Both the position numbers and the translations under genes were made by a program. Positions 1 through 12,081 of a DNA stretch of 64,000 bases are shown here, one piece after another; positions within the stretch are counted from its first letter, which is position 1, and every line of letters starts with the position of its first letter. The notes under the pieces were generated by a model. The model did no database searches. It worked only from the letters and a program-made list of their open reading frames with translations, and had not been told where the DNA came from. This DNA comes from a virus (Duplodnaviria; Caudoviricetes): the IMG/VR virus record IMGVR_UViG_3300030090_002325, positions 2,067 to 66,066 of that record; one strand, written 5' to 3'.

Positions 1-1
1 T

Positions 2-30
2 GAACATTTGGCTATGATAGCCATTTGTTC
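2..30. repeat. 29-bp dispersed palindrome, copy 1
   Basis: gaac attt ggcta tga tagcc attt gttc; directly upstream of a -35 box; followed by an extra half-site (cgaacaaat). Confidence 0.95.
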
Positions 31-41
31 CGAACAAATAT

Positions 42-70
42 CTTGACTTTGCCAATTTTCCTGTTAGTGT
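42..70 (+). promoter_or_regulatory. Early sigma70-type promoter P1
   Basis: TTGACT (43-48), 16-nt spacer, extended -10 TGtTAGTGT (62-70); closely similar copy at 1801-1829. Confidence 0.7.
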
Positions 71-123
71 ATTTCTTGTAAGGAACAATCCTGTTCGTTA
101 CTTAATCAATGGAGGTTCATCTT

Positions 124-867
124 ATGAATGAATCAAAAGCGCGTGAACTTTTGGGTATATCAGCCAAAAGTTCGTTTCACCTCAACGCCTCTCAGTTACA
201 GGCGGTAGAGGTTGCAGTCTCTGGTATACAAGATTACGAGTTGACATCTGGTCAACTTCGTAACAAGGAGCAAGAGTTAGCTCTTGCGTTCTATAATGTG
301 GTGAGCGACAACGGGGTTATCCCTGTTGAAAGCTTTGATTACAACACTTGGACTATGGGTAGAAAGCTCATAACCAAAGCTTGTGTTACAGCTTATGAGT
401 TAAGCGAAGATAGAGTACGCCATATTCTTGGCGCGTCTATTAAGTTACTGACTAATGAAGGTATTGTGGTCGGTGATATTGAAATTCCTGCAATAACTAA
501 ACCTGCAAAGGCAACACCTGATGCAGTTCGCATGAGTGCTAAACGTAAGGCTCAAGCGGAAAAGTTCGATGGTCTCAGTGATTCTCAAATTGAATCGAAA
601 GCTGAGGAATTGGCTCAGGATATGAGTACCATAGCTGAGGCAGGGGAGTTCGCGGCGGAACTACAAAAACGCAAGAAAGCTCAGGACAAAGCGACTGAGA
701 AAGCCGAGCGTGAAAGTAGAACTGAGCTTAACAAAGCTGTTCGTAGTAGTCTGAAAGATGTGTCTACTGAGTTGGCAGGTTACATGGCATGGTTAACAAA
801 ACATGAACATGATGAATCTGACTTCATAGTTAAACAGATTAACGCTTGGAAAGAATACACAAGCTAA
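124..867 (+). CDS. Hypothetical early protein with Lys/Glu/Ala-rich coiled-coil C-terminus
   Basis: Long ORF; GGAGG at 111-115 favours the ATG at 124; followed by a terminator. Confidence 0.85.
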   Translation: MNESKARELLGISAKSSFHLNASQLQAVEVAVSGIQDYELTSGQLRNKEQELALAFYNVVSDNGVIPVESFDYNTWTMGRKLITKACVTAYELSEDRVRHILGASIKLLTNEGIVVGDIEIPAITKPAKATPDAVRMSAKRKAQAEKFDGLSDSQIESKAEELAQDMSTIAEAGEFAAELQKRKKAQDKATEKAERESRTELNKAVRSSLKDVSTELAGYMAWLTKHEHDESDFIVKQINAWKEYTS

Positions 868-885
868 TTAATCTGGTAGTTAATT

Positions 886-914
886 AAACCCCACCATTTC
901 GGTGGGGTTTTTTT
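886..914 (+). terminator. Rho-independent terminator
   Basis: AAACCCCACC-atttc-GGTGGGGTTT followed by a T tract, just after the stop at 867. Confidence 0.9.
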
Positions 915-931
915 ATGCCTGTAATCAATTT

Positions 932-960
932 GAACATTTGGTTATGTTAGCCAAATGTTC
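932..960. repeat. 29-bp dispersed palindrome, copy 2
   Basis: gaac attt ggtta tgt tagcc aaat gttc. Confidence 0.95.
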
Positions 961-1113
961 ACCTAGTCAACTTTGTCATCTGATACCTTCCCTCATTTAC
1001 CTTCCCTTATCATAGTTATACATCTATACAACGGTCATAAGGGAGTTACATGTACGGTCATAAGGGAGTGTGATGCACTGAACTGGTTTGGTTTGGGGGA
1101 AGGTCAACGAAGC

Positions 1114-1142
1114 TAACATTTGGTCATGATAGCCAAATGTTC
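1114..1142. repeat. 29-bp dispersed palindrome, copy 3 (degenerate left arm)
   Basis: taac attt ggtca tga tagcc aaat gttc. Confidence 0.9.
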
Positions 1143-1212
1143 ACCGAGTTAACTTCGCGACATTGTGTCGCGTTATTGTCAAGTTAACTTCGTGATACTG
1201 CATTGCACAATG

Positions 1213-1576
1213 TGTAATTTTGTAATAATAGGTGTAATTTTATAAACGTAGTAATAGCAAGGGTTTCAGCTGTATTATTACATTATTACATTATTACACT
1301 AAATAAATTAGCTTTAGCAAAATAAAAATTGATCAAAATATACCATCTGTATATTCTTCGTTATCTTCGTTCAAAGAAGATACGCAGTGCAGAGTTCTTG
1401 GCAAAAACGTGTAATTTTGTAATTTTACTTAGTTATCATACACATAGCGTGTAATGATACAAAGCTAACGAAGCTCAAACATGTAATTTTACTTACTATT
1501 CAATAACTTAAGGTGTAATTTTATACTCATTCAAATCTGTAATTTTACACGCAAATCAAACACTTAATAAAATTAC
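1213..1576. repeat. Cluster of TGTAATTTT iteron-like repeats in AT-rich non-coding DNA (candidate origin)
   Basis: Exact TGTAATTTT at 1213, 1233, 1410, 1418, 1482, 1514, 1538; inverted ATTACA x3 at 1277-1298; AAAATTAC at 1569. Confidence 0.8.
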
Positions 1577-1725
1577 GTCAAATCAATCCTCTTCCGACAT
1601 TATGACGTTCTCCCCTCATTCACCACCCAATACGACAAAATGTCTATACAGAACGTATATTTATTTATACCATCTGTATAGACAAAATTGTACCTTTTAT
1701 ACCATCTGTATATACCATCTGTATA
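1339..1725. repeat. TATAC-N5-GTATA repeats (TATACCATCTGTATA)
   Basis: Exact 15-mer at 1339, 1666, 1698, 1711; variant TATACAGAACGTATA at 1645. Confidence 0.85.
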
Positions 1726-1800
1726 TCATTTTACTTTGGAGCATCACCAACCCCAAAACTATGTTCACCCCATTTAGGCGACAAAATGTCGAACATTAAA

Positions 1801-1829
1801 CTTGACTTTATCAATAATTCTGTTAGTGT
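1801..1829 (+). promoter_or_regulatory. Early sigma70-type promoter P2
   Basis: CTTGACTTT...CTGTTAGTGT with the same boxes and spacing as 42-70. Confidence 0.7.
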
Positions 1830-1883
1830 GATATACATGGGGAGAAGGTATAAATGTTCGCACTGGCGGACTTTATACACCTC

Positions 1884-1912
1884 GAACAAATGGTTATGTT
1901 AGCCACTTGTTC
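1884..1912. repeat. 29-bp dispersed palindrome, copy 4
   Basis: gaac aaat ggtta tgt tagcc actt gttc. Confidence 0.95.
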
Positions 1913-2026
1913 ACACCATTTCGAGTGGTATAAGAGGAAGATTACAGGGACAAAGTTAACCTCTCTCCATTGATTGGAAAGGATACCGTAAGACTTATAC
2001 CACTCACTTTTAAAAGGAGAATCAAC

Positions 2027-2251
2027 ATGGCACTTCGTCAACCTGAAACTAAAGCTGACGTGTACGCATACTTAGATTCTGAACAACGCGCGGCTCTCTA
2101 TGGCGCACTAAGACATATTAATACTGACGCACAACGAGCGTTCTTTTTTGAGGTCTTAGGTAGCAAGTTCTTTCTTAAAGGACGTGGGTTTTCAGACGCT
2201 CTACACAGTGCAAAATCAGCATTCGTTGATAAATTTGTTTATCGTAAATAA
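2027..2251 (+). CDS. Hypothetical early protein (MALRQPETKAD...)
   Basis: AAGGAG RBS before the ATG at 2027, inside track ORF 1970..2251. Confidence 0.75.
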   Translation: MALRQPETKADVYAYLDSEQRAALYGALRHINTDAQRAFFFEVLGSKFFLKGRGFSDALHSAKSAFVDKFVYRK

Positions 2252-2264
2252 GTTAACATCACCA

Positions 2265-2293
2265 GAACAAACGGCTACGTTAGCCGTTTGTTC
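2265..2293. repeat. 29-bp dispersed palindrome, copy 5 (perfect inverted repeat)
   Basis: gaac aaac ggcta cgt tagcc gttt gttc; between stop 2251 and the RBS of the next gene. Confidence 0.95.
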
Positions 2294-2315
2294 ACTTTTT
2301 AAAAGGAGAATCAAC

Positions 2316-2495
2316 ATGACGGTATCAAACAAAGAGCACAAGATGCTCGAACTCGCAGGATATTTCTACCACTCAGCTCACAGATGGTCAGCACCCATGT
2401 GTGTCCTTCAAGCATGTAAAGAGTACAACATATCTTTACACCCACATATGTTCCGACTGTTCACCTTACACCTCACACACGGAGCAACCATATAA
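2316..2495 (+). CDS. Hypothetical early protein (MTVSNKEHKM...)
   Basis: Same leader TTTTAAAAGGAGAATCAACATG as the gene at 2027. Confidence 0.7.
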   Translation: MTVSNKEHKMLELAGYFYHSAHRWSAPMCVLQACKEYNISLHPHMFRLFTLHLTHGATI

Positions 2496-2515
2496 CACCA
2501 ACATTCACAACCCCC

Positions 2516-2544
2516 GAACTTGTGGCTCGTATAGCCATTTGTTC
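2516..2544. repeat. 29-bp dispersed palindrome, copy 6
   Basis: gaac ttgt ggctc gta tagcc attt gttc, flanked by ccc/ggg. Confidence 0.9.
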
Positions 2545-2567
2545 GGGATTTCATAGGAGTAAATAAC

Positions 2568-2783
2568 ATGAAACTAAAAGACACAATAGAAATAGCTAGT
2601 CTTGACGATGGCGACATTATCGCAGTCAATGAAGAACATGATGTGGGAGAGATAGCCATAGCAGGTTCGACTGAAGATTTTATAGAGCATGAAATGCATA
2701 AAGCCAATAACACAGAGGGAGAAGATTTGGCGAAGGGTACATACATTCTACTAAAAGCCGTAGGCACGTTGGAGGTGAAGTAA
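2568..2783 (+). CDS. Hypothetical acidic protein
   Basis: ORF with AGGAG RBS. Confidence 0.75.
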   Translation: MKLKDTIEIASLDDGDIIAVNEEHDVGEIAIAGSTEDFIEHEMHKANNTEGEDLAKGTYILLKAVGTLEVK

Positions 2784-3046
2784 TGAGTAGATATTTAGCT
2801 ACGGAAACAAGAGATAAAAAAGACAAAAGACGTAGTAAGCGTTGGTTCAAAAGAAAATACTCCAGTTCGAGAAAGGTTAATACTCATGGGTGTATGTACT
2901 CCAAGAGCCAAGCTGAAAGGGCGAGTGCTATAGCGGAAACTGGTTTTGGAATACTGCCTTTAGAATATAGAAAAATGCGTAGAAGAAATGGTGGTGCTTG
3001 GGGAAGAGTTAGTTTTCGGTTATTGGAAAAATGGAAAACAGCATAG
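2783..3046 (+). CDS. Hypothetical basic protein
   Basis: TAATG coupling; GGAGG RBS. Confidence 0.7.
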   Translation: MSRYLATETRDKKDKRRSKRWFKRKYSSSRKVNTHGCMYSKSQAERASAIAETGFGILPLEYRKMRRRNGGAWGRVSFRLLEKWKTA

Positions 3047-3057
3047 GAGGAAACCAC

Positions 3058-3186
3058 ATGAAAACCATCACCATTGAAGTTATGGGAGGTTGTGTTGTTG
3101 ATGTAAATAACCTACCCGAAGGATATACCTATGAGATTTATGACCACGATTTAACTGATGAGGAGGAAGTAAATGAGAAAATCTAA
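3058..3186 (+). CDS. Small hypothetical protein, 42 aa (MKTITIEVMGGCVVDV...)
   Basis: Read by eye, below the track cutoff; AGGAGG RBS. Confidence 0.65.
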   Translation: MKTITIEVMGGCVVDVNNLPEGYTYEIYDHDLTDEEEVNEKI

Positions 3187-3292
3187 AGAAAGAAAGCAGA
3201 AACGCAAGAGACTATTGGCATCACAAATTCGCAAGAAACGTGAAGAGAAAGAGGCCAAACGTAAAGCTAAAGAGGAGGCTAAAAATGCCTAA
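3173..3292 (+). CDS. Small Lys/Arg-rich peptide, 39 aa (MRKSKERKQKRKR...)
   Basis: Read by eye; GAGGAGG RBS; fills the gap between overlapping neighbours. Confidence 0.55.
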   Translation: MRKSKERKQKRKRLLASQIRKKREEKEAKRKAKEEAKNA

Positions 3293-3461
3293 ATACGAAG
3301 TAACTTTCCTAGACCATTTTGAAGCAGATAAGGTAGAAGATATATATGAATGGTTACTTACTTATATGGAAGAGTGTGTAAGGAATGAAGATGTCGAAGG
3401 GTTTAATTTTAGATTAATAAATGAGGAGGAGGAGAATGCGGAACAAACTCAAAAGACTTAA
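3285..3461 (+). CDS. Hypothetical protein (MPKYEVTF...)
   Basis: GAGGAGG RBS before the ATG at 3285. Confidence 0.7.
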   Translation: MPKYEVTFLDHFEADKVEDIYEWLLTYMEECVRNEDVEGFNFRLINEEEENAEQTQKT

Positions 3462-3852
3462 CAACAAAGAGAGGTCAGAGGCATGGAGGTGGCTATATCG
3501 GCATATTAAGTATTTAGCTAAAAACAATACAAAGCCACGTGGCTACCAATACGATAGCAGTATTGCTAAGTGCAGAATTATAAACAAGGTTCTCGATCAA
3601 AATAGATGGGCGAGAAGTTTAGAAGGGTATATAGGTAATCTCAGAAACGAATTATACCCATTTCAACTATGGAGAATAACCCAATGGACGCAGGGGCTTG
3701 AGCATCACTGGGATTGGGACAACCTGCCATTTCCTAAGGAAGTTATTGTTAATGTCCGTAAAAAATGTGCAGGTTGGGAACCTGCATTTTTGACTGAGAA
3801 AATACTTAAGAAGTACCAACCTAAACGTAAAGCTTTTAAATTAAGGAGGTAA
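3436..3852 (+). CDS. Hypothetical Trp-rich basic protein
   Basis: GGAGGAG RBS before the ATG at 3436. Confidence 0.7.
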   Translation: MRNKLKRLNNKERSEAWRWLYRHIKYLAKNNTKPRGYQYDSSIAKCRIINKVLDQNRWARSLEGYIGNLRNELYPFQLWRITQWTQGLEHHWDWDNLPFPKEVIVNVRKKCAGWEPAFLTEKILKKYQPKRKAFKLRR

Positions 3853-3856
3853 TGAA

Positions 3857-4105
3857 ATGAAATTTAAAATACTAATCACAATCGAGAAACCCCTAGCCAG
3901 AATGAAATTTAGATATATGGATAAACAAGATGGGGGGGTTATTGAGGAAGAAGAATGGTCTCATAAACGCTTTGAATCCAGAGCCGAAGCTACGAAGGCT
4001 TACCATGCTCTCATAGCGAAGTTAGAGGACGAAGTTAACTATGCTCAAGAAACATTAAATGCCCTAGTAGAGAATGGACAAATAGTGGAGGTGAAAGATG
4101 AGTAA
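3857..4105 (+). CDS. Hypothetical protein
   Basis: AAGGAGG RBS. Confidence 0.75.
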   Translation: MKFKILITIEKPLARMKFRYMDKQDGGVIEEEEWSHKRFESRAEATKAYHALIAKLEDEVNYAQETLNALVENGQIVEVKDE

Positions 4106-4262
4106 AGAAGTTACAGCAGAAAACGTGGAAACATGGTTGGGTTCAGATTGGTCGTGGAGTGATTTGATGATGATGATAGCTGAGATAGCAAATGGAGAGT
4201 ATGAACCACAGAACCTAAAGAAAGACATACTAGAACTAGTGGAGGGGGAAGAAAATGGGTAG
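4098..4262 (+). CDS. Small hypothetical protein, 54 aa (MSKEVTAENVETWLG...)
   Basis: Read by eye; GGAGG RBS; overlaps both neighbours by a few nt. Confidence 0.7.
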   Translation: MSKEVTAENVETWLGSDWSWSDLMMMIAEIANGEYEPQNLKKDILELVEGEENG

Positions 4263-4743
4263 ATACTACTCAGGCGATATCGAAGGGAAGTTCTGGTTTG
4301 CCTGTCAGAGCAGTGATGATGCGGATAGCTTTGGTGTAACAGGTACACCACCTGACGACAGGTTGGTTTATTATTTTAGGGAACAAGATATGCCTAAAAT
4401 TGAACAAGGTTTGAAGGACTGTATAGACCAACTGAATGCCTATAGTCCGATGTTACTTGACCTTCTAGACGCATACCACTTTGGTTGGTTCAATACAGAG
4501 AAAGGAGTTTATGAGGATTCGGAGGAATGGCTTTCGCAGAGTGATGAATCCATACCCACTGCTAATATTCAGTTAGCAAGAAAGCATAAGAGTCAGGACG
4601 AAATGATACGAGCTAACAGTATTATATTGGGAGAGACAGATACAAATACTGTAGATGAAGTTTATGCCCGATTAATATTAGGCAGAAAGATTCATAAATG
4701 TGTTGAGAGAACAGAGCAATGTTGGTTTGAAGCCGAACTATAA
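4255..4743 (+). CDS. Conserved-looking phage hypothetical protein (MGRYYSGDIEGKFWF...)
   Basis: ORF with RBS; N- and C-terminal motifs resemble a recurring phage family. Confidence 0.8.
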   Translation: MGRYYSGDIEGKFWFACQSSDDADSFGVTGTPPDDRLVYYFREQDMPKIEQGLKDCIDQLNAYSPMLLDLLDAYHFGWFNTEKGVYEDSEEWLSQSDESIPTANIQLARKHKSQDEMIRANSIILGETDTNTVDEVYARLILGRKIHKCVERTEQCWFEAEL

Positions 4744-4764
4744 ACTAAATAGAGGAGAGAGAAT

Positions 4765-6054
4765 ATGTTTCAATCATTAAAAAGACACGTCCCTCAATTT
4801 AACTCATGGTTAGATGTGGAACGCAGATACAGACAAACACAGCACTGTAGAACTGATGCGCCAATGGTCAGACGCTTATGTGATGATGGCTCTGATTCGT
4901 ATGGGCGTAGAAATAAAAATCTACTGTTGGAACGTGTACATGGCGGTACGAAACCAAATGAGGATTGCTTTCAAGTTTTATACTATGGCACTGTTATTGC
5001 TAGGTTTTACAGAAAATACTATACGATAAACTTGGAAGGGTGGAACAGTAAGAGTACAAAAATAATACTAGAACAACTAACAGGAGCTACCATAAAAAAC
5101 TTTCACCCACTGCGCTACATACCAGATACATACCCATGTCTTGAAGTAAGAATACATGATGATGCTGACTATCATCAGACACAAGAGAGATTACTCATAC
5201 CTGATATAACTCTGACCAGAGGTAAACTAGGTACTCTCGCTGAAGCAAATGCACCCTCTACCCATTGCAAAGACATTCCTGTTAAAGAACAAGAAGTCAG
5301 TAAATACACAGAGATTAAATTCCCTGTGGATAATTATTGGGTTGATGAAGAAAATAAACTGGTGGCAACACGTGGTATATCTACAATAGACAAAGAGAAC
5401 CGCAATTGGAAGGGGATAGTTTTTTTAGAGTCAGATGAAGAAGCTCATACAATGCGTATACCTGTACGCCCAGTCTCATGTGCGGAGTTAGTTTGGTTTC
5501 CTAAAGGTGTTACACCTCGTCTCCCCACTCGTGGAAGTAATACTTTTAATAACCCTAAAGCAGGTTACCTATTCACTTCTAGGGAAACATATAAATTTGA
5601 TTACGATGGTTCACCTATAACACGTAGAAATTTCTGTAAGTTCTACAAATATAAGATCGATAGAAAAGAATTAAATAAAACTAGAAAAAATATTCAAAGA
5701 TTCCTTGATTATATTGGGGCTTATATGAAGTTATGTTCTGAAGATGGGGGCGACACGGTAATTATTAATAAGGACGAACCAAAATATATGGGGGGTTTAC
5801 AACAACATGAAATGTTTGCTCTTTTATATTGGTATTGTCTAAAAGATAAACCTAAAACTGTACGAGAGTTCTTTAACAGCACAGAAGAGGGAACACTGTG
5901 GGCAGACATGCTAACCGCATTACAGCAGAGCAATAAACGACACGCTCTGGGAATGAACAATAATAAACTTACCATTAGCTGTGCCTCAGTGATTGAAGAT
6001 TTAGATAGAATTATTAAACATGCTAACCCACGTACATTAGTACGAGTTAGCTAA
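4765..6054 (+). CDS. Hypothetical protein, 429 aa
   Basis: Long ORF; GAGGAG RBS. Confidence 0.85.
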   Translation: MFQSLKRHVPQFNSWLDVERRYRQTQHCRTDAPMVRRLCDDGSDSYGRRNKNLLLERVHGGTKPNEDCFQVLYYGTVIARFYRKYYTINLEGWNSKSTKIILEQLTGATIKNFHPLRYIPDTYPCLEVRIHDDADYHQTQERLLIPDITLTRGKLGTLAEANAPSTHCKDIPVKEQEVSKYTEIKFPVDNYWVDEENKLVATRGISTIDKENRNWKGIVFLESDEEAHTMRIPVRPVSCAELVWFPKGVTPRLPTRGSNTFNNPKAGYLFTSRETYKFDYDGSPITRRNFCKFYKYKIDRKELNKTRKNIQRFLDYIGAYMKLCSEDGGDTVIINKDEPKYMGGLQQHEMFALLYWYCLKDKPKTVREFFNSTEEGTLWADMLTALQQSNKRHALGMNNNKLTISCASVIEDLDRIIKHANPRTLVRVS

Positions 6055-6057
6055 CCC

Positions 6058-6086
6058 GAACTTTTGGCTACAACAGCCAGAAGTTC
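6058..6086. repeat. 29-bp dispersed palindrome, copy 7
   Basis: gaac tttt ggcta caa cagcc agaa gttc; 3 nt after stop 6054, before the RBS of the AAA gene. Confidence 0.9.
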
Positions 6087-6107
6087 ACAACTTAAAAGGA
6101 GAAGAAG

Positions 6108-7154
6108 ATGGAAACGACAGTTAGTTTAAAAGAAGCTGAAGAGTTAATTGCCCAAGTGGGTAAGGATTTAACTGTACACCTCAGAGGACAACCCGGAATT
6201 GGGAAGTCCACACTGCTCACCACACTAGCCAAGAGATTCCCTGACCATACGCCTGTCTATATTGACTGTGCTGACTTGGACTTGGGTGACTTGGCTATGC
6301 CGGCCATGAATCATGAAACAAAGACCACAGCGTTCTATCCGAACGAAAGGTTCGCAGTACACAAAGGCACACCTGTGCTTGTGATGCTTGATGAGATAAC
6401 CAAAGCGTCTGAGCCTGTCAAGAATATGCTGTTGCCTGTGATGCTTGAACGCAGACTAGGGGCAGTGGAGTTTCACCCTGATAGCATAGTGTTTTCCACA
6501 GGTAACCTCACGACTGATGCTGTGGGAGACCACTTGAAAGCTCATGCTAAGAACAGGGTTAGTCAGGTAACAGTACGTAATCCTAGCGATGAAGAATGGC
6601 TAGAGTGGGGTAGTAAGAATGACCAAGCACCAGAAGTTCTGGCTTGGGTTCATCAGTTCCCTCATTGTCTGGCATGTTACACAGATAAATCCCAAGAGGA
6701 GAACATGTATATCTATAACCCTGCTAAACAACAGGACGCGTTCGTGTCACCACGTTCACTAGCTAAATCATCATTCATAGTGAAAGCAAGGCATGAACTT
6801 GGAGAGAATGCCACGATGGTAGCACTTGCAGGTACTATCGGTGAAGCCGCGGCTCGTGATATGTCAGCGTTCTTTAGTTTGGCTGATGGTCTTCCGAGTA
6901 GACAAGCTGTGTATAGCTCACCAGATACTGCGAAGTTACCTGATGATCCTGCGGCTAGAGTTATATTAGTTATGCGAGAGATACAAGCATATGACAAGAA
7001 AACTTTTGACGCAGTCGTCACATATATGAAGAGATTTCCTAAAGAGTTACAAGCTCTCTTCTTCCATTCAATTACAAAATCACCCCATCAATTTGAAGTA
7101 GCAAAACTAAAATCATTTATGCAATGGGTGAATGAGAACCACCAATTTTTATAG
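6108..7154 (+). CDS. MoxR/dynein-related AAA+ ATPase
   Basis: Walker A GQPGIGKS, Walker B VMLDEI, sensor TGN, SPRS motif. Confidence 0.9.
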   Translation: METTVSLKEAEELIAQVGKDLTVHLRGQPGIGKSTLLTTLAKRFPDHTPVYIDCADLDLGDLAMPAMNHETKTTAFYPNERFAVHKGTPVLVMLDEITKASEPVKNMLLPVMLERRLGAVEFHPDSIVFSTGNLTTDAVGDHLKAHAKNRVSQVTVRNPSDEEWLEWGSKNDQAPEVLAWVHQFPHCLACYTDKSQEENMYIYNPAKQQDAFVSPRSLAKSSFIVKARHELGENATMVALAGTIGEAAARDMSAFFSLADGLPSRQAVYSSPDTAKLPDDPAARVILVMREIQAYDKKTFDAVVTYMKRFPKELQALFFHSITKSPHQFEVAKLKSFMQWVNENHQFL

Positions 7155-7164
7155 GAGGATAGTG

Positions 7165-7380
7165 ATGAGTAAAGAGTGGCAAGATGTAGATAAAGTTAAC
7201 AAAGCTATAGAAACATTAGATACTTTTGTTTCCGATTCTTTAGACGCTTTAGATTGGTCAGATAAAGACTTAAATAAAGCAGAGTACGGATGGAGTTTAA
7301 TCAAAAAGAGACTAAAGGAGTTTGAAAAACTTGAGGACTGTCTTAAAGAGATAGAAATAAGGAGGCTAACTGATGGCTAA
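7165..7380 (+). CDS. Small hypothetical protein between the AAA and VWA genes
   Basis: AGGAGG RBS before the ATG at 7165. Confidence 0.75.
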   Translation: MSKEWQDVDKVNKAIETLDTFVSDSLDALDWSDKDLNKAEYGWSLIKKRLKEFEKLEDCLKEIEIRRLTDG

Positions 7381-8608
7381 GTTAACTAGACCAGAAGATA
7401 GGGTTACTAAGGCACACATTCGTATCATGACCAGTCCTGAGTTCTGTATGTTCTCAGGTGTGTTGTCAATAGGGGATATAACTTTTACCAGAGATATACC
7501 CACCGCATGTACAAATGGGCGTGATGTTATCTATAACCCTGACTTCATAGACACAATGAATGATAAGGAACTTACGTTCTTAATACTTCATGAAGCTATA
7601 CACAAAGCATTTCAACACATGCACTTGTGGCAGAAACTGTATAAGGAAGACGCTAGGTTAGCCAACATAGCCGCTGACTATGTAGTTAACAGTAGCATTA
7701 AAGATGCCGATCCTTATGAGAAAAGGTGTGCAATGCCTAACAATGCTCTGTATGACAAGAGGTATGATGGCATGACAACTAGGCAAATCTTTGACCTACT
7801 GAAGAAGAATCCACCACCCCAACAACCTCAGCCTTCTCCTATGGGAAGTCAGGGGAAAGAGGATAAATCATCCCAGTCTGGTACACAAAAAAGTTCACAA
7901 GGACAACAGGAAACTTTGGACTCACATGACTGGGAAGGTGCTAAACAAATGTCTAAGGAGGAAAAGACAAGGGTACAGAAACAGATAGACCAAGCACTGA
8001 GACAAGGAGAAGTAATCAGGGGGAAGATGAAGGGAGATATTAACAGAGGAGTGAAGGAGTTGCTTGAGCCACAAGTTAACTGGCGTGAACAACTACGAGA
8101 GTTCATAACTGCTATATCTAAAAGCAAAGATGAAACTTCTTTTAGGCGACCACACAGGAGGTTCGTAAGTCAGGATATCTATATGCCTTCAATGATAGGC
8201 AACTGCATAAATAAAATAGTTATCGCAGGGGATTTGTCTGGCTCTATTAGTTCAGAGACAGAGCGTAAGTTTCTGACTGAGGCAATACAAGTCTGTAAAG
8301 ATGTTAACCCTAACACCCTCGATCTTATTTGGTGGGACTATGATGTGCAAGGACATGAGGTGTACATAGAGGGAGAGTACGACACTATCCTAGAACGTAC
8401 CAAACCTACTGGTGGTGGAGGAACTCGTGTTGGGTGTGTAAATGAGTTCATTAAGGATAAAAGACTCGATCCCGATGTTGTAATTATTCTTACTGATGGG
8501 TACGTGGAAGATGATTGGGGTGGTACGTGGGATTACCCAACACTATGGGCAATCACTGAAAAACGTATGACTTCACCACATGGTAAATCAATTTATATAG
8601 ACGAGTAA
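7373..8608 (+). CDS. DUF2201-type metallopeptidase (HExxH) plus VWA domain protein
   Basis: PTACTNG, LHEAIH, NIAADYVVN; MIDAS-type DLSGS, GGGGT, LTDG. Confidence 0.9.
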   Translation: MAKLTRPEDRVTKAHIRIMTSPEFCMFSGVLSIGDITFTRDIPTACTNGRDVIYNPDFIDTMNDKELTFLILHEAIHKAFQHMHLWQKLYKEDARLANIAADYVVNSSIKDADPYEKRCAMPNNALYDKRYDGMTTRQIFDLLKKNPPPQQPQPSPMGSQGKEDKSSQSGTQKSSQGQQETLDSHDWEGAKQMSKEEKTRVQKQIDQALRQGEVIRGKMKGDINRGVKELLEPQVNWREQLREFITAISKSKDETSFRRPHRRFVSQDIYMPSMIGNCINKIVIAGDLSGSISSETERKFLTEAIQVCKDVNPNTLDLIWWDYDVQGHEVYIEGEYDTILERTKPTGGGGTRVGCVNEFIKDKRLDPDVVIILTDGYVEDDWGGTWDYPTLWAITEKRMTSPHGKSIYIDE

Positions 8609-8613
8609 CAAAC

Positions 8614-8642
8614 GAACAAATGGCTATTGTAGCCAAAAGTTC
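8614..8642. repeat. 29-bp dispersed palindrome, copy 8
   Basis: gaac aaat ggcta ttg tagcc aaaa gttc; 5 nt after stop 8608 and abutting AAGGAGG. Confidence 0.95.
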
Positions 8643-8654
8643 AAGGAGGTGAAT

Positions 8655-8867
8655 ATGTATTTCGTAACAATTTTATGGGGTGAAAACCCTAGTAAACATG
8701 AGGAACCAGAGCTTTATTACTTTAATACTGAGCGAGAACGAGAAGCGTTTATGTCTGGAGTTAATACTGCGATGGGGTGGCAAGACTATGACGTGCAGTT
8801 TCATAGCACCGCAAAGAAGTTTAAACATGAAGAGTTTGATAACTATAAAGGAGAAGATGATGAGTGA
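8655..8867 (+). CDS. Hypothetical protein
   Basis: AAGGAGG RBS directly after palindrome copy 8. Confidence 0.7.
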   Translation: MYFVTILWGENPSKHEEPELYYFNTEREREAFMSGVNTAMGWQDYDVQFHSTAKKFKHEEFDNYKGEDDE

Positions 8868-9240
8868 GATAGAAGAAGCTAGTAATCATTTACTGAGAGT
8901 TGTAGAAATACTTAAAGGTTTTGATAAACGATTAAAAAATCTGGAGGATAACAAGGTGAATATAGAAGGATTAAATATAGATGAAATAGTTGAAGAAGTT
9001 AAACAGGATATTAAAGACAATCTTAACTACGGTGAGATAGCAGACCATATAAACCCATCTGATGTCGCTGAGCATATAAACCAAGCTGACATAGTAGAAG
9101 AGGTAGCAAATTACTATGGCGCAGAAGGTATAGCTGAACACGTGTATACAGACCAAGTAGCTGAGCATGTGGAGGTTGATTACGAAAAAGTAGTACAAGG
9201 TTTAATTAAATCTTTTATGGCAGATAAGGAGTGCAAGTGA
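8857..9240 (+). CDS. Hypothetical protein with (I/V)A(D/E)H(I/V) repeats
   Basis: AAGGAG RBS; IADHI, VAEHI, IAEHV, VAEHV. Confidence 0.75.
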   Translation: MMSEIEEASNHLLRVVEILKGFDKRLKNLEDNKVNIEGLNIDEIVEEVKQDIKDNLNYGEIADHINPSDVAEHINQADIVEEVANYYGAEGIAEHVYTDQVAEHVEVDYEKVVQGLIKSFMADKECK

Positions 9241-9494
9241 TGGACTATGTAGACGCAAATGTATTTTGGAAAACTATAGCACTAATCAAATCAGTAGGAG
9301 ATATAACTGAGGAGAGGGGTACTTTAGATTCGGGTAAAAAGAGTGGGATACAACAGGTATTTTATAAAGATGCTGATGGAATAATAGTAGGAGAGGTTCT
9401 TCGTGAACCCCCCAACCCTACTAACCATTACATTAACTACACATACATAACAAGTAAGCCAGAACTTTGGGAAAAAGTTAAGGAGGTGTCGTGA
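9240..9494 (+). CDS. Hypothetical protein
   Basis: Coupled ORF with AAGGAG RBS. Confidence 0.7.
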   Translation: MDYVDANVFWKTIALIKSVGDITEERGTLDSGKKSGIQQVFYKDADGIIVGEVLREPPNPTNHYINYTYITSKPELWEKVKEVS

Positions 9495-9874
9495 AAGAAA
9501 CAGATGAGTTTGACTTTGATGAAGACCATCACATTAAAGACAAATACCCTGAGTACATAGAGGAGGATAGTGATAGACATTCTGAAGAACAGTATGAAAT
9601 GGTATTTGAAGATAAATTAGATGAGGCTACAGACTTACTCTATAACCACCCAGAATCTTTTGCAGAGATAATGGAGGAACTCAGAGTAGAGGATAGAGAG
9701 TATGAGTTTGATTTCGCTAAGGTTCTCATGGACAGCTTGAAAGATTTACCTAGTTCATCAGAGGAAACAAATGTTATCAGGTCACACTCATTGATAACAA
9801 AGATCGCAACGGCATATGACAATCTTGTAGACGCATATGCTGAAACATTAACGAGAAAAGAGTTAGGAGGATAA
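9491..9874 (+). CDS. Highly acidic hypothetical protein (possible DNA mimic)
   Basis: AAGGAGG RBS; strongly Asp/Glu-rich. Confidence 0.75.
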   Translation: MKETDEFDFDEDHHIKDKYPEYIEEDSDRHSEEQYEMVFEDKLDEATDLLYNHPESFAEIMEELRVEDREYEFDFAKVLMDSLKDLPSSSEETNVIRSHSLITKIATAYDNLVDAYAETLTRKELGG

Positions 9875-9875
9875 T

Positions 9876-10484
9876 ATGAGTTTAAATATACCACAGTCCT
9901 ATCTAAACCATACTAGTTCAGTAGCACTGATTATGGACTGGAACACGTTTAGTAATGGGCAGAAGAAAAACATTCTTAAACCTATAACCACAGGTGTAGG
10001 TAGGAATAGCTATTGCGCGACAGCGATGGTGTCAAGAGGGTTAAGTCGTAGGTTTAAAATACCAGTGTGTGGGGTTGAGAATTCCCAACTAACTATACCT
10101 AAGAATCTACCTGATGGTCACCCTGCGTTCAAACTTCTATCTGACCACTATAAACTATGTAAAATTATTTCCCCAGAAATTAGTGAAAGTGCTGACGAAT
10201 ACTTAAAGTGTATAGACAATTATAAATTAAATAGCGCTAAACTTACACATGGTGGTAACGATTATAGTGGTTCATGGAGGCTGTTCTTTTATCATCAAGC
10301 TTTTGACAAGAAGCACTACGTTCAATTTAAAAAAGATTTAGTGTTTCCTACTCAAGTAGGTGATGAAGCTAAGAGCGCTATAGATAAGTTAAAAAATGAT
10401 CAGGTCAATACATTACGATTAGATTTTATAAGTGAGCTACGTAATGGGTATTACCACAAACTAATAGTAACGGAGGTAACATAA
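9876..10484 (+). CDS. Hypothetical protein
   Basis: AGGAGG RBS. Confidence 0.8.
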   Translation: MSLNIPQSYLNHTSSVALIMDWNTFSNGQKKNILKPITTGVGRNSYCATAMVSRGLSRRFKIPVCGVENSQLTIPKNLPDGHPAFKLLSDHYKLCKIISPEISESADEYLKCIDNYKLNSAKLTHGGNDYSGSWRLFFYHQAFDKKHYVQFKKDLVFPTQVGDEAKSAIDKLKNDQVNTLRLDFISELRNGYYHKLIVTEVT

Positions 10485-11350
10485 TGGAACCAGTAAGCAT
10501 AGCAACAAGCGCAGTTCAAATAGATTTAAACATATCTACATGGACAGCACGTAAATTAGATAGGAAAGTTTCAGAAGAGATTGATGGGACTAAGAAAGCT
10601 AATACCAGAGCAGGTAACTACAACAAACATTTACTTGCAGGAACTAAACAACTAAAAGACATTCAGTCATTGACTGGGGAGATAAGGAACTGGCATTTAA
10701 AGCAGACACTTCCTTGGTCTGACAATGGGACTAGGTTGTTACCAATGAGTAACTTCTTTAAATATAAAGAACAACTCAATGAATACCAACACCAGTTTGA
10801 TACTATGGTAGATCAACTTGTATCAGATTATCCTCAGTTGATAAGTCTATCAGCTTATAACTTAGGGGAATTATTTGATGCAAATGATTACCCCCCTGCA
10901 GAGCATATAAGGAGTAAGTTTAACTTGAGTTATACTATTATTCCTGTACCAGAGGCAGGGGATTTTAGAGTAGATATTGGCAACGATATACGTGAGGAAC
11001 TCAAAGAACAGTACGAAGAAGCTTACCAACAAAAGGTGGAGACAGCTATGAGTAGTGCTTGGTCTAGACTGCACACCACACTAGAAAATATGGTGAAAAA
11101 ATTAGCTGATCCCAGATGGGATGAAGAGGATGTAAAGAACCCACAGGTTTATGATTCGTTCGTAGGTCATGGTATGGAGTTAACTTCTCTTCTGACAAGT
11201 CTGAATATTACAAACGATAGCGACTTGGAACAAGCCAGAGTAGCGCTTGAACAAGCGTTAGCAGGAGTTCAACCTGACATGATAAAGAACCAACCTTATG
11301 TCAGAGAGAAACTACTTAAAGATGTTCAATCAATTAAGGACTTACTATGA
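10484..11350 (+). CDS. Conserved phage protein, DUF3150-like
   Basis: LNISTWTARKLD, TLPWSDNGTRLLP, DYP...IRSKF motifs; this type of protein co-occurs with AAA/VWA genes. Confidence 0.65.
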   Translation: MEPVSIATSAVQIDLNISTWTARKLDRKVSEEIDGTKKANTRAGNYNKHLLAGTKQLKDIQSLTGEIRNWHLKQTLPWSDNGTRLLPMSNFFKYKEQLNEYQHQFDTMVDQLVSDYPQLISLSAYNLGELFDANDYPPAEHIRSKFNLSYTIIPVPEAGDFRVDIGNDIREELKEQYEEAYQQKVETAMSSAWSRLHTTLENMVKKLADPRWDEEDVKNPQVYDSFVGHGMELTSLLTSLNITNDSDLEQARVALEQALAGVQPDMIKNQPYVREKLLKDVQSIKDLL

Positions 11351-11724
11351 AGGTAATAAAACTAACTGATGAAGATGATGCTGACTATCTTAGGGAAAGA
11401 GAAAGGGTAGCCATAGGAACGTTAAAACTAGCAGGAGACGGTTCTTATGTTAAAGGTGTAGGTATGCGTGATGGGGACTTCTATTTACTAGAGGAGACAT
11501 CCGAAGACTCTGAGTATATGGCTTTTGTAAGCGATGTTGATCCTACAAAGCGCCAATGGTTAGTTGATACTATACTGGCGAATGGTACAAAAAACACATT
11601 AGACATAGACTTACCTCCTATTCCAGAAAGTAGCACTCTTGTTTTCTTCAAAAAAATACGTAATAAAAAGTACTTGTTCAGAACATTATGGGACTTTAAA
11701 ATACAAGAAAAGACAGCTATTTGA
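11347..11724 (+). CDS. Hypothetical protein
   Basis: ATGA overlap with the upstream gene. Confidence 0.75.
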   Translation: MKVIKLTDEDDADYLRERERVAIGTLKLAGDGSYVKGVGMRDGDFYLLEETSEDSEYMAFVSDVDPTKRQWLVDTILANGTKNTLDIDLPPIPESSTLVFFKKIRNKKYLFRTLWDFKIQEKTAI

Positions 11725-11726
11725 TT

Positions 11727-11755
11727 GAACAAATGGTTATCATAGCCAAAAGTTC
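11727..11755. repeat. 29-bp dispersed palindrome, copy 9 (last)
   Basis: gaac aaat ggtta tca tagcc aaaa gttc; 2 nt after stop 11724, at the early/replication boundary. Confidence 0.95.
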
Positions 11756-11777
11756 AAGGCTCATATAATGACTAACA

Positions 11778-12071
11778 ATGACTAAGAAAGTTACAGAGAA
11801 GTGGGTTAAGCGCCAAGTAGTTCAACGTTTAAAAGAACTTGGCGCTTACTACTTCTATCCTGTAGCGAGTGGGTACATGTCCTCTGGTGTGCCTGATATT
11901 GTAGCCTGCTACAAAAGTAAATTCATAGCTATCGAATGCAAAGCCAACGGAAACAAACCAACCCCCCTCCAACTTAAAAACCTCAACGAGATAAACTTAT
12001 GTCTAGGTATTGCTTTGGTTATTGACGAGAATAACCTAGATGATGTTACTGCCACCCTCCTAAAACTCTAA
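11778..12071 (+). CDS. VRR-NUC domain nuclease (putative Holliday junction resolvase)
   Basis: E...GVPD...IECK...PTPLQ motifs. Confidence 0.9.
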   Translation: MTKKVTEKWVKRQVVQRLKELGAYYFYPVASGYMSSGVPDIVACYKSKFIAIECKANGNKPTPLQLKNLNEINLCLGIALVIDENNLDDVTATLLKL

Positions 12072-12081
12072 CCCTTTTCCT

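What the first reader, a model, noticed from the sequence alone, without database searches (positions are those of the whole stretch)
2..11755. Nine copies of a 29-bp intergenic palindrome confined to the early region
Seen: GAAC-N4-GGYTA-N3-TAGCC-N4-GTTC at 2, 932, 1114, 1884, 2265, 2516, 6058, 8614 and 11727, always 29 bp and always intergenic. I found none beyond 11755. Copies 7-9 start 2-5 nt after a stop codon, and copies 5-8 end shortly before the next RBS. The four boxes and their spacing are conserved, while the N4 linkers often fail to pair (copy 1 attt/attt, copy 6 ttgt/attt). Inference: this fits a dsDNA site read by a dimeric or tetrameric protein better than an RNA hairpin. Possible roles are a regulon operator, a loading or protection site on the first-injected DNA, or a recombination site delimiting gene cassettes. 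I do not recognise it as a described element.
Basis: partly seen in the sequence, partly recalled or inferred. Interest (0 to 1): 0.9.

Follow-up and report, generated by a model that had tools for sequence, protein, structure and literature searches.

The report
Phage palindromes matched to first early protein
A marine phage marks the junctions of its early genes with ten copies of a 29-base palindrome whose sequence changes, from phage to phage, together with the phage's first early protein, which points to a fast-evolving regulator and its binding sites.

Summary
All nine sites exist (six exact, three with 1-2 mismatches), and there is a tenth, degenerate copy at 145-173 inside the first ORF. 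No other copy occurs in the 66-kb genome; shuffles give about 0.03.

The element is not peculiar to this phage. 64 related uncultured marine phage loci carry palindromes of the same build at the same gene junctions: outer box, 2-4 A/T letters, inner box, short centre. There are about 19 different box sequences, each uniform within a genome and confined to a 10-12 kb early arm.

The box type follows one gene, the first early gene (window 124-867). Backbones that are 94-99% identical carry different palindromes exactly where this protein differs. The protein belongs to no named family, has no clear fold match, and is predicted to form a symmetric homodimer.

Best reading (0.5): double-stranded DNA operators for this dimer, which autoregulates and blocks early transcription, like mycobacteriophage stoperators. 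Main rival (0.3): the same protein reads the transcribed RNA hairpins. There is no host REP family, no integrase and no Rfam match.

This is a new variant of a known kind and can be tested with gel shifts.

The parts
2..30 (.). Palindrome copy 1 (exact). It ends 12 nt upstream of the -35 of promoter P1 and is centred near -61.
   Evidence: boxes kept in G001, G002 and G004
43..70 (+). P1, a sigma-70-type extended -10 promoter (TTGACT, 16 nt, TGtTAGTGT) for the first early gene
   Evidence: read. It is near-identical to the element at 1802-1835. The simple scan tool did not flag it (its second hexamer scores 3 of 6), so this is my reading.
78..101 (.). Small palindrome at the start of the P1 transcript that carries only the outer boxes (GAACA..TGTTC)
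   Evidence: (listed as 78:GTAA-GAACA); function not tested
124..867 (+). First early gene (247 aa), the candidate cognate binding protein. It is all-alpha, belongs to no named family, and is predicted to form a symmetric homodimer through residues 1-102.
145..173 (.).
   Evidence: the orthologue in G001 515-543 has 2-3 mismatches
886..915 (+). Intrinsic terminator closing the first-gene unit
   Evidence: 10-pair stem followed by a T-run
932..960 (.). Palindrome copy 2, directly after the terminator
   Evidence: part of a 41-nt duplication with copy 3 (D4)
1114..1142 (.). Palindrome copy 3 (2 mismatches) in the non-coding, iteron-rich region
1802..1835 (+). P2, the second copy of the extended -10 promoter, at the head of the long early operon
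   Evidence: read; my reading, not flagged
1884..1912 (.). Palindrome copy 4, about 49 nt after the -10 of P2 (in the leader)
   Evidence: The same order (promoter, then 30-45 nt, then palindrome) is seen in other clades.
2265..2293 (.). Palindrome copy 5. It is fully paired (C-G in place of T-A next to the inner box) and is the only window copy followed by a T-run.
   Evidence: Absent from G001. Lost together with gene 2027-2251 in one population variant.
2516..2544 (.). Palindrome copy 6 (1 mismatch), at the junction of a shared gene and window-only genes
6058..6086 (.). Palindrome copy 7 (1 mismatch), between ORF 4765-6054 and the MoxR-type ATPase gene. This position holds a palindrome in most relatives.
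8614..8642 (.). Palindrome copy 8, after the DUF2201/VWA gene and 0-1 nt before the next SD
11727..11755 (.). Palindrome copy 9, the last one, just before the Hjc-like resolvase and DNA polymerase genes
   Evidence: The G003 orthologue has GGTTA/TAACC.

Best explanation
The palindromes are the cognate cis-sites of the phage's own first early protein (window 124-867).

Shown by comparison: (1) the sites are real and are confined to the early arm; (2) their positions are conserved across a large phage group, while their box sequences come in about 19 genome-specific types; (3) the type tracks the allele of this one gene and not the backbone.

Inferred: the protein binds as a symmetric dimer to double-stranded DNA. 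Each subunit would read a 13-15 bp half-site made of an outer box, a 2-3 bp A/T spacer read by shape, and an inner box. This is like two stoperator-type half-sites placed head to head.

Inferred function: the protein is made at once from the strong host-type promoter P1. It then occupies the site at its own promoter or leader (autoregulation) and the sites in the P2 leader and at module junctions, where it hinders initiation or elongation by host RNA polymerase. That would time or shut off the early arm.

More speculative: the many types arise because closely related phages gain from not cross-regulating each other, or from excluding each other.
For: Sites. There are 10 copies within 11.8 kb and none in the remaining roughly 54 kb. 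Three complete relatives carry their own type 6, 6 and 8 times, each set within 9.6-11.8 kb, with control 0. Loci of 12-17 kb hold 5-7 copies, against 0-0.2 in shuffles.

Same position, different sequence. The spacer before the ATPase gene in 45 unique relatives shows this. An alignment of 24 of them recovers the inner stem, with double-sided changes in all 5 pairs.

Covariation. L046 and L049 are 94.5% identical over 12.5 kb. Their inner boxes are swapped on both arms (GTATCA versus TGCGTA) at 5 of 6 paired sites. At 7947, identity is 72/80 in the upstream flank, 20/33 in the site and 77/81 downstream; at 13952 it is 73/80, 18/32 and 74/82. Their first proteins are only 43% identical. L072 and L083 have ATPases 99% identical, first proteins 30% identical, and different types.

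Over 16 loci, the 8 same-type pairs have first-protein identity of 60-81%. The 112 different-type pairs have 19-43%, although 35 of those pairs have ATPase identity of 90% or more. The first gene is the only + strand ORF cluster (50 aa or more) that is type-specific in all 4 types with several members.

dsDNA rather than RNA. Among non-Watson-Crick pairs, G.U on + occurs 25 times and A.C 37 times; A.A occurs 83 times and T.T 82 times. Linker positions 7-8 are 82-94% A/T and pair no more often than chance. In the window/L031, L034 and L070 clades the first-gene copy lies upstream of the -35, where that promoter does not transcribe it, and in L084 it overlaps the -35.

Dimer. The homodimer model scores 0.77, against 0.00 for the best of 3 controls. 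The three runs share at least 80% of contacts, and partner pLDDT is at least 77. In calibration, 20 of 30 known homodimers and 1 of 23 single chains reached this mark; those counts hold only roughly here because my own alignment was used.

Not a host element. A scan of one genome for each of 185,579 species gave 13 single hits in unrelated phyla.
Against: No binding was measured. The protein has no recognisable DNA-binding domain: no Pfam, NCBIfam or PHROG hit, no PDB sequence hit, and fold matches only at noise level.

Some context is strand-specific, which suits RNA. 63 of 118 sites have an SD-like tetramer 6-10 nt downstream. 25 of 118 have TTTT just downstream, against 4 with the mirror AAAA upstream. 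All 10 window copies would fold as stable RNA hairpins, at -10 to -21 kcal/mol. In most clades the first-gene copy lies in the transcribed leader.

Total length varies from 28 to 34 bp between types, which a hairpin tolerates more easily than a rigid dimer does.

The pairs of loci are not phylogenetically independent. Only early loci, + strand ORFs of 50 aa or more, and 16 of the 64 loci (those in which I found both a first-gene homologue and a repeated palindrome) entered the covariation test. A determinant elsewhere in the genome is therefore not excluded.

Some sites do not follow the genome's type: L049 10322 and L083 7947.
Confidence: 0.5

Rival explanations
1. Same partner, but RNA. The first early protein recognises the transcribed hairpins in its own leader and between cistrons. 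It then controls termination or read-through (like lambda N with boxB, or a protein-stabilised attenuator), translation of the next cistron (like an RNA-phage coat protein on its operator hairpin), or processing.
For: Most sites lie between a stop codon and an SD; 63 of 118 are 6-10 nt from an SD-like tetramer, and the mirror control gives 0 within 15 nt. 25 of 118 have a downstream T-run, against 4 in the mirror control. All window copies give stable predicted RNA hairpins. In most clades the first-gene copy is in the leader, as nutL is for N (recalled). The architecture is kept while lengths differ between types. The covariation evidence fits this reading equally well.
Against: There is no excess of G.U over A.C (25 versus 37) and none of A.A over T.T (83 versus 82). 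Within a single genome, some copies would be continuous helices and others would carry 2x2 or 3x3 internal loops, which is awkward for a shape-reading RNA binder. In the window/L031, L034 and L070 clades a conserved copy lies upstream of the promoter, and window copies 1-3 have no adjacent RBS. Only 1 of the 10 window copies has a T-run.
Confidence: 0.3
2. Recombination punctuation. The palindromes serve mainly as exchange points that shuffle early gene cassettes, like the PeSL elements of T4-type phages or integron attC sites. Their uniformity within a genome would then come from gene conversion.
For: Copies 5 and 6 are absent from G001 and sit at junctions of window-only and shared genes. 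G001 and G002 have an extra copy (4211) next to DNA of their own. Copy 7 lies 56 nt from a homology breakpoint. Small early genes are not shared between clades. The four-box build with an unpaired spacer resembles the R''-L''-L'-R' layout of attC (recalled).
Against: There is no tyrosine recombinase (the control matched in 14 of 14 genomes) and no Y1 transposase. Only about 3 of roughly 20 breakpoints versus G001 are near a copy, and copies 8 and 9 lie in unbroken homology. The one clean population deletion (2008-2296) used a 22-nt repeated RBS leader, not the palindromes. Gene conversion alone would not conserve the boxes while leaving linkers and centre free. It would also not explain box-only swaps within near-identical flanks, tied to one gene.
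Confidence: 0.08
3. Structure-only RNA elements with no dedicated phage factor: host RNase III sites like those of the T7 early region, barriers to 3' exonucleases, or weak terminators.
For: The sites are intergenic hairpins confined to an early operon, as in T7 (recalled). The predicted folds are stable. One fifth of sites have T-runs.
Against: Box sequences are uniform within a genome and are switched on both arms together with one gene in near-identical backbones. A host enzyme that reads shape would not demand this. The strand test shows no RNA bias. No Rfam family matches at the sites; the 3 sub-threshold hits lie elsewhere.
Confidence: 0.07
4. Selfish dispersed repeats moved by the flanked first gene, in the manner of REP/REPIN elements and their RAYT transposase.
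For: The first gene is flanked by its own palindromes (2-30 and 932-960 in the window; likewise in L070 and L034). The repeat type follows the gene.
Against: Positions are conserved across clades while the sequences change, which is the reverse of what mobile insertions give. The genome has no Y1_Tnp domain. The protein is all-alpha and has no Pfam family hit, which would cover HUH domains. No bacterial genome carries the family.
Confidence: 0.03

Closest known systems
Stoperators and the immunity repressor of Cluster A mycobacteriophages (L5, TipsytheTRex). Read: passages of PMC9283540 and the abstract of PMC6550527.
   Same: Both have many copies of one site, at promoters and in short intergenic spaces along operons. 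The half-site length is the same, 13 bp. In the solved stoperator structure two reading heads sit in successive major grooves, which matches the two boxes per half-site here. In both systems the sites and the protein diversify together into specificity types.
   Different: Stoperators are asymmetric 13-mers bound by a monomer, and they work only in one orientation. The sites here are 28-34 bp palindromes, and a homodimer is predicted. That repressor has an HTH, while this protein has no detectable HTH and no similarity to it. Cluster A phages are temperate; this genome has no integrase or ParB. The sites here are limited to a 10-12 kb early arm rather than spread over the genome. Binding and any block of transcription are untested here.
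PeSL (promoter-early stem-loop) cassettes of T4-type phages. Read: section 13 and abstract of PMC2839356 and abstract of PMC4122927.
   Same: Both are repeated intergenic elements lying between a stop codon and the next SD in plastic early regions, next to ORFans. Both include a stem-loop. A promoter-plus-palindrome module recurs here too (P2 with copy 4 in the window, and several in relatives).
   Different: Each PeSL contains a sigma-70 promoter, and its stem-loop is an effective terminator, often poly-G/poly-C. Here 8 of the 10 window copies have no promoter beside them, and 9 of 10 have no T-run. The boxes here are specific to each genome and follow one protein allele, which is not reported for PeSLs in the parts I read.
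Lambda N with the boxB hairpins of nut sites (search listing only; details recalled)
   Same: In both, the first early gene product is paired with a hairpin in its own leader and in the early operon, and protein and hairpin differ together between related phages.
   Different: Lambda has two nut sites per genome, each with a boxA beside it, and N is about 100 aa with an arginine-rich motif. Here there are 6-10 sites, some of them upstream of promoters, no strand bias, and a 200-250 aa protein predicted to dimerise.
RNase III processing sites of the T7 early region (recalled; no paper read)
   Same: Both are several intergenic hairpins with internal loops, confined mainly to the early operon of a podophage.
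   Different: T7 sites are about twice as long and are read by a host enzyme. They show no genome-specific switching tied to a phage gene.
Integron attC sites, and REP elements with RAYT (abstract start of PMC3333891 seen in the listing; attC layout recalled)
   Same: All are imperfect palindromes made of an outer pair and an inner pair of boxes with an unpaired spacer, found at gene ends. In REP/RAYT the repeats flank the cognate gene.
   Different: This genome has no integrase and no Y1 transposase. The sites are much shorter than attC (29 bp). Their positions are fixed across clades. No bacterial genome carries copies.

Membership tests
Cluster A mycobacteriophage stoperator/repressor system | Many copies of one site at promoters and in short intergenic spaces of operons | tested here: met
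   10 copies in the window, 9 of them intergenic or promoter-proximal; 5-8 per relative
Cluster A mycobacteriophage stoperator/repressor system | Asymmetric 13-bp site whose orientation follows the direction of transcription | tested here: not met
   The sites are two-fold symmetric 28-34 bp palindromes, and there is no strand bias.
Cluster A mycobacteriophage stoperator/repressor system | Repressor homologous to L5 gp71, with an HTH and a Stoperator domain | tested here: inconclusive
   No Pfam HTH at E up to 0.01. No PDB sequence match below E 0.2. No Foldseek match at E up to 0.001. VIA best Z is 6.1. A remote likeness cannot be excluded.
Cluster A mycobacteriophage stoperator/repressor system | Sites and protein diversify together | tested here: met
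Cluster A mycobacteriophage stoperator/repressor system | Bound protein stops transcription; confers immunity in lysogens | not testable with these tools
   Needs binding and reporter assays. No integrase or ParB was found.
PeSL cassettes (T4-type phages) | Each element holds a sigma-70 promoter | tested here: not met
   Only copies 1 and 4 lie beside a promoter-like element.
PeSL cassettes (T4-type phages) | The stem-loop acts as a terminator | tested here: inconclusive
   1 of 10 window copies and 25 of 118 sites in relatives have a downstream T-run. Activity was not measured.
PeSL cassettes (T4-type phages) | Indels and replacements between close relatives end at the elements | tested here: inconclusive
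   About 3 of roughly 20 breakpoints versus G001 lie near a copy. One clean deletion used another repeat.
Integron attC | IntI-type tyrosine recombinase encoded nearby | tested here: not met
   PF00589 gave 0 matches in the whole 66-kb record, while the control matched in 14 of 14 genomes.
Integron attC | R''/R' core sites RYYYAAC and GTTRRRY (consensus recalled) | tested here: not met
   In the window only AAC/GTT fit, and the flanks do not. Other types have unrelated outer boxes.
REP / RAYT | HUH Y1 transposase gene | tested here: not met
   PF01797 gave 0 matches.
REP / RAYT | Family dispersed in a bacterial chromosome | tested here: not met
   The exact-pattern scan of genome contigs gave 13 single-copy hits in unrelated phyla. 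Degenerate copies were not searched.
N4-type hairpin promoters for a virion RNA polymerase | Giant virion RNA polymerase gene | tested here: inconclusive
   The C-terminal 700 aa of the 2,424-aa protein match PLxRFG/DarB-like virion proteins. There is no Pfam RNAP and no PDB sequence match. Its first 1,600 aa remain unassigned.
Known RNA families (Rfam 15) | Match to a curated covariance model at the sites | tested here: not met
   Window 1-13000 at E up to 1 gave 3 sub-threshold hits, none at a palindrome.

The most novel reading that the evidence does not exclude
An abundant, uncultured group of marine podophages carries a hypervariable 'specificity lock'. A first early protein of a fold not yet seen dimerises and reads four-box palindromes that punctuate the early arm. 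It has diversified into dozens of mutually exclusive types (about 19 site types in 64 loci; 292 protein clusters at 50% identity). The reason would be that it doubles as a self/non-self device between co-infecting lytic relatives: it silences the early arm of same-type superinfecting phages and is blind to other types. That would be an immunity system without lysogeny.
Probability: 0.2. Interest if true: 0.85.

Novelty: new variant of a known kind. Interest (0 to 1): 0.72.

Why it matters
If the pairing is real, it gives a function to the leading gene of a widespread, uncultured group of 66-kb marine phages, a gene for which no family or fold is known. It also adds a second, independent case of operators placed between genes of an operon, which has so far been a peculiarity of Cluster A mycobacteriophages. 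This case has a different site symmetry and a different protein.

The natural series of about 19 site types, with near-isogenic pairs that differ only in the boxes and in this gene (L046/L049 and L072/L083), is a ready-made data set for learning a protein-nucleic-acid recognition code. It could also supply orthogonal regulator/site pairs.

It makes a general question directly testable: why do lytic phages diversify their early regulatory specificities?

Tried and rejected
Close DNA relatives among cultured phages: none were found (megablast with window 1-12000 and blastn with 4765-8608).

N4-type hairpin promoters: I considered these because the ATPase's nearest cultured relatives are N4-like phages at 27% identity. 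I dropped the idea because no virion RNA polymerase was detected and host-type promoters head the early units.

Same-geometry palindromes with other boxes: the first scan found only single orthologous coding palindromes. It was too rigid, with a fixed 29-bp geometry. Looser searches found the families.

L047 gave 0 hits because I set the wrong centre length for its type. Its two copies are seen.

Fold and family of the first protein: nothing usable came from Pfam, PHROGs, NCBIfam, PDB sequences, Foldseek pdb and viral, VIA wide, or the ESM Atlas (best named lead DUF3102 at 0.84, below the trust level). One source calls a 41%-identical homologue 'RPA family protein', and NCBIfam did not bear this out.

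Four cultured distant relatives (Vibrio phages 1F273_PE002 and douglas 12A4, Pseudomonas KPP25, Rhizobium RHph_TM3_14A) gave no match to the first-protein profile. That call had no positive control.

Expression data: no RNA holder was listed for window 1-10000, and all 22 runs are DNA metagenomes, so RNA ends could not be mapped. Contigs of four DNA runs were laid. They show mosaic joints mostly at gene borders and one clean deletion, but no joint that uses two palindromes.

The outer stem could not be scored on alignment A2 because the types are out of register by one column, so only the inner stem is reported.

A promoter reading into copy 1 from upstream: there was one weak match 360 nt away, at chance level. 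This is not excluded.

Supplementary files of papers were not consulted. Those of PMC2839356 (PeSL reporter data) and PMC6550527 (stoperator lists) may bear on the comparisons.

Full report
**1. The observation**

The pattern GAAC-N4-GGYTA-N3-TAGCC-N4-GTTC matches exactly at window 2, 932, 1884, 2265, 8614 and 11727, with 0 matches in 100 shuffles.
- With up to three mismatches it also finds 2516 and 6058 (one mismatch each) and 1114 (two).
That gives ten positions, against 0.03 expected.
- The window is bases 2067-66066 of a 66,066-base virus record. The two ends of the record overlap by 99 bases, so the assembly is circular or permuted.
- The remaining 2,066 bases hold no copy.

Genes on the + strand run from 1 to about 22,950:
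- many small ORFs without relatives;
- a MoxR-type ATPase at 6108 and a DUF2201/VWA protein at 7373;
- an Hjc-like resolvase at 11778, DNA polymerase A at 12374 and a PD-(D/E)XK nuclease;
- two HTH proteins, an SNF2 helicase and a DUF927 primase-helicase.

The structural genes lie on the - strand. All ten copies therefore lie in the first half of the early/replication arm.

Copy 145-173 lies inside the first ORF, so 'always intergenic' is not strictly true. The stated distances to stop codons and to ribosome-binding sites are correct.

**2. Setting in the window**

Two near-identical host-type promoters (TTGACT, 16 nt, TGtTAGTGT; my reading) head two units.
- P1 (43-70) drives one gene (124-867), which is closed by a strong terminator (886-915). 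Copy 1 ends 12 nt upstream of its -35. The degenerate copy lies in codons 8-17. Copy 2 follows the terminator.
- Next comes about 900 bp of non-coding DNA packed with several iteron families, which holds copy 3.
- P2 (1802-1835) follows, with copy 4 about 49 nt downstream. The long operon then carries copies 5-9 at gene junctions, the last one just before the resolvase and polymerase genes.

No RNA polymerase gene was found. The 2,424-aa protein matches the PLxRFG/DarB-like giant virion proteins of 60-kb podophages in its last 700 residues.

**3. Relatives**

An exact-pattern scan of IMG/VR found four contigs that are 77-90% identical to the window and hold orthologous copies. In these contigs the boxes are kept while the linkers flip between A-runs and T-runs. 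Copy 2, for example, is fully paired in the window and unpaired in G001.

A protein search with the ATPase brought in 64 loci at 63-85% identity. At the orthologous spot, between the upstream stop codon and the ATPase SD, nearly every one of 45 unique spacers shows a palindrome of the same build but with a different sequence. By eye, L058, L067, L077 and L080 show none. The build is:
- an outer stem of 4-6 bp;
- 2-4 mostly A/T letters;
- an inner stem of 5-7 bp;
- a centre of 3-7 letters.

Examples of the box pairs are GAAC..CTTACT, GTTC..TGCAC..GAAC, GTGAC..GTTATA, GCGAC..GTATA, GGAA..TGCACG and GCAC..TTCACA.

On a MAFFT alignment of 24 of these spacers, RNAalifold recovers the inner stem. 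All five pairs show double-sided changes, in 6-14 sequences each.

Within each locus the same type recurs 5-7 times, against 0-0.2 in shuffles. I count about 19 box combinations that recur within a locus.

In three complete 66-kb relatives the local type occurs 6, 6 and 8 times. Each set lies within 9.6-11.8 kb, and the control pattern gives 0. 'Confined to the early arm' is therefore a property of the whole group.

The window's motif is not a host repeat. A scan of one genome for each of 185,579 species gave 13 single hits in unrelated phyla, which is about chance level.

**4. What the type depends on**

The gene after P1 has very divergent homologues (16-60% identity) at the same place in 22 loci.

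Two near-isogenic pairs are decisive.
- **L046 and L049** are 94.5% identical over 12.5 kb, and the one long stretch without DNA homology is this gene. The proteins are 43% identical, while the ATPases are 98% identical.
  - At five of six paired sites the inner boxes differ on both arms (GTATCA/TGATAC versus TGCGTA/TACGCA).
  - At 7947, identity is 72/80 upstream, 20/33 in the site and 77/81 downstream.
  - At 13952, identity is 73/80 upstream, 18/32 in the site and 74/82 downstream.
  - One site (10325/10322) is identical in both.
- **L072 and L083** have ATPases 99% identical, first proteins 30% identical, and different types. L083 keeps one site of the other type at 7947.

I then compared the 16 loci, of the 64, in which I had both the gene and a typed palindrome family.
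- The 8 same-type pairs have first-protein identity of 60-81%.
- The 112 different-type pairs have 19-43%.
- ATPase identity overlaps fully between the two groups, and 35 different-type pairs are at 90% or more.

Among all + strand ORFs of 50 aa or more in these loci, clustered at 55% identity, the first gene is the only cluster that is type-specific in all four types with several members. For type T7 it is the only such cluster at all.

Limits of this test:
- the pairs share ancestry;
- short ORFs, the - strand and the late region were not tested.

**5. DNA or RNA**

For dsDNA:
- In 118 unique sites the non-Watson-Crick pairs show no bias towards the transcribed strand. G.U occurs 25 times against 37 for A.C, and A.A 83 times against 82 for T.T.
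- The two central linker positions are 82-94% A/T. They pair 39 and 42 times, against 41.5 and 52.8 expected by chance. The neighbouring positions pair far above chance. This is what a spacer read through the minor groove or by shape gives. In RNA it would mean that, within one genome, some copies are continuous helices and others have 3x3 loops.
- In the window/L031, L034 and L070 clades the first-gene copy lies 10-13 nt upstream of the -35, centred near -61 to -65, and in L084 it overlaps the -35.
- Inner boxes are 9-10 bp apart and outer boxes lie 8-10 bp further out, that is, in successive grooves on one face.

For RNA:
- In most clades the first-gene copy lies in the leader, 35-70 nt after the -10.
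- 63 of 118 sites have an SD-like tetramer 6-10 nt downstream, and 88 have one within 15 nt. The mirror control gives none.
- 25 of 118 have TTTT just downstream, against 4 with the mirror AAAA.
- All window copies would fold at -10 to -21 kcal/mol.
- Total length differs between types, from 28 to 34 bp.

I weigh this as about 5:3 for DNA.

**6. The protein**

The family has 292 representatives at E up to 0.001 in a library clustered at 50% identity. All come from metagenomes, and none has a usable name. There is no Pfam, PHROG or NCBIfam hit and no PDB sequence hit.

The AlphaFold model has a mean pLDDT of 80.6 and is all-alpha:
- a four-helix N-terminal domain;
- a conserved K-P motif before a basic helix (132-148);
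- long C-terminal helices.

Foldseek against the PDB and BFVD gives nothing at E up to 0.001. The wide VIA search gives a best Z of 6.1, which is noise for helical models.

A homodimer fold scores 0.77, against 0.00 for the best of three controls.
- The symmetric interface covers residues 1-102.
- The three runs share at least 80% of contacts, and pLDDT is at least 77.
- In calibration, 20 of 30 known homodimers and 1 of 23 single chains reached the mark. These counts are rough here because my own alignment was used.

In the same-type pair L055/L094, residues of about 30-150 are 70-80% identical and the C-terminus only 23-33%. The specificity probably lies in the N-terminal two thirds.

**7. 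Rivals tested**

- The genome has no tyrosine recombinase, no ParB and no Y1 transposase.
- No Rfam family matches at the sites.
- Against G001, only about three of roughly twenty homology breakpoints lie near a copy.
- A clean deletion seen in one metagenome contig removes gene 2027-2251 together with copy 5. It does so through a 22-nt repeated RBS leader, not through palindromes.
- Positions are conserved while sequences change. This argues against mobile repeats.

**8. Comparison with known systems**

The nearest analogy in how the system works is the set of operators and 'stoperators' of Cluster A mycobacteriophages.
- Those are more than twenty 13-mers at promoters and in short intergenic spaces.
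- They are read by a two-headed repressor in successive major grooves.
- Site and protein diversify together (passages of PMC9283540; abstract of PMC6550527).

This system is not a member of that family, for four reasons:
- the sites are symmetric;
- no HTH is detectable in the protein;
- there is no sign of lysogeny;
- the sites are restricted to the early arm.

PeSL cassettes of T4-type phages share the position between a stop codon and an SD, and the link with plastic early regions (PMC2839356 section 13; abstracts). They are built around a promoter and a terminator. The parts I read do not report them as tied to a protein allele.

Lambda N/boxB, T7 RNase III sites, attC and REP/RAYT each share one or two traits, as set out in the tables.

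My literature searches turned up no description of this element. That covers only the open-access library searched, and only those terms.

**9. Verdict**

The site family and its link to the first early protein are well supported, at about 0.8. The reading as dsDNA operators that autoregulate and block early transcription is the best available mechanism, at about 0.5. An RNA-level reading with the same protein is the main rival, at 0.3. It is a new variant of a known kind of system, resting on a new protein family, and simple binding assays can test it directly.

Noticed in passing
G000:C1:1921-1936 (131-146 nt before window base 1); also L031 about 215-230: TGTTTCACGTGAAAC, flanked by G-runs, lies in the divergent region upstream of the early arm. 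It equals the chromosomal parS consensus as I recall it. It is conserved in relative G001, but the phage has no ParB domain. It may recruit a host ParB.
   Followed up: partly
window 960-1880: Non-coding stretch with several iteron families: TGTAATTTT (about 8 copies), ATACCATCTGTATA (5 copies), ACGGTCATAAGGGAGT (2 copies), AGTTAACTTCG (2 copies) and ATTATTAC (3 tandem copies). It looks like a replication origin. GTTAACTTCGTG-like words recur at the same place in other clades.
   Followed up: partly
window -30 to -10 (G000 about 2030-2055), and upstream of P1 in L037, L044, L055, L072, L083 and L094: A G-rich motif (GGGGTATGGGGTATGGGTAGG-like) directly precedes the -35 of the first promoter in most clades. 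In the window clade the palindrome is inserted between the motif and the promoter.
   Followed up: no
window 2008-2296: One metagenome contig (run X7, depth 19) lacks gene 2027-2251 plus palindrome copy 5. The joint has 22 letters shared by both sides, which is the repeated leader ACTTTTTAAAAGGAGAATCAACATG.
   Followed up: partly
L083 7043, 7947, 10728: One relative carries two palindrome types at once. Its own type (TGTGAA..CTCACG) is at two sites. The type of its near-identical relative L072 (GCGAC..GTATA) is at the ATPase junction. This looks like a recombinant caught before its sites were matched.
   Followed up: partly
window 1854-1970: A possible 38-codon leader ORF with its own SD (GGAGAAGG) spans palindrome copy 4. 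Its start is kept in G001, but there it ends earlier.
   Followed up: no
window 6108-8608: The pair of a MoxR-type AAA ATPase and a DUF2201 metallopeptidase/VWA protein is bracketed by palindromes 7 and 8. The ATPase's nearest cultured relatives are N4-like phages at 27% identity.
   Followed up: partly
window 22946-30220 (- strand): A 2,424-aa protein whose last 700 residues match the PLxRFG/DarB-like giant virion proteins of phages such as PEp14, Parlo and SopranoGao. The first 1,600 residues match nothing.
   Followed up: partly
G000 ends (1-99 and 65967-66066): The first 99 bases of the record recur at its end, so the 'linear' record is a circular or circularly permuted assembly of about 65,967 bp.
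   Followed up: yes
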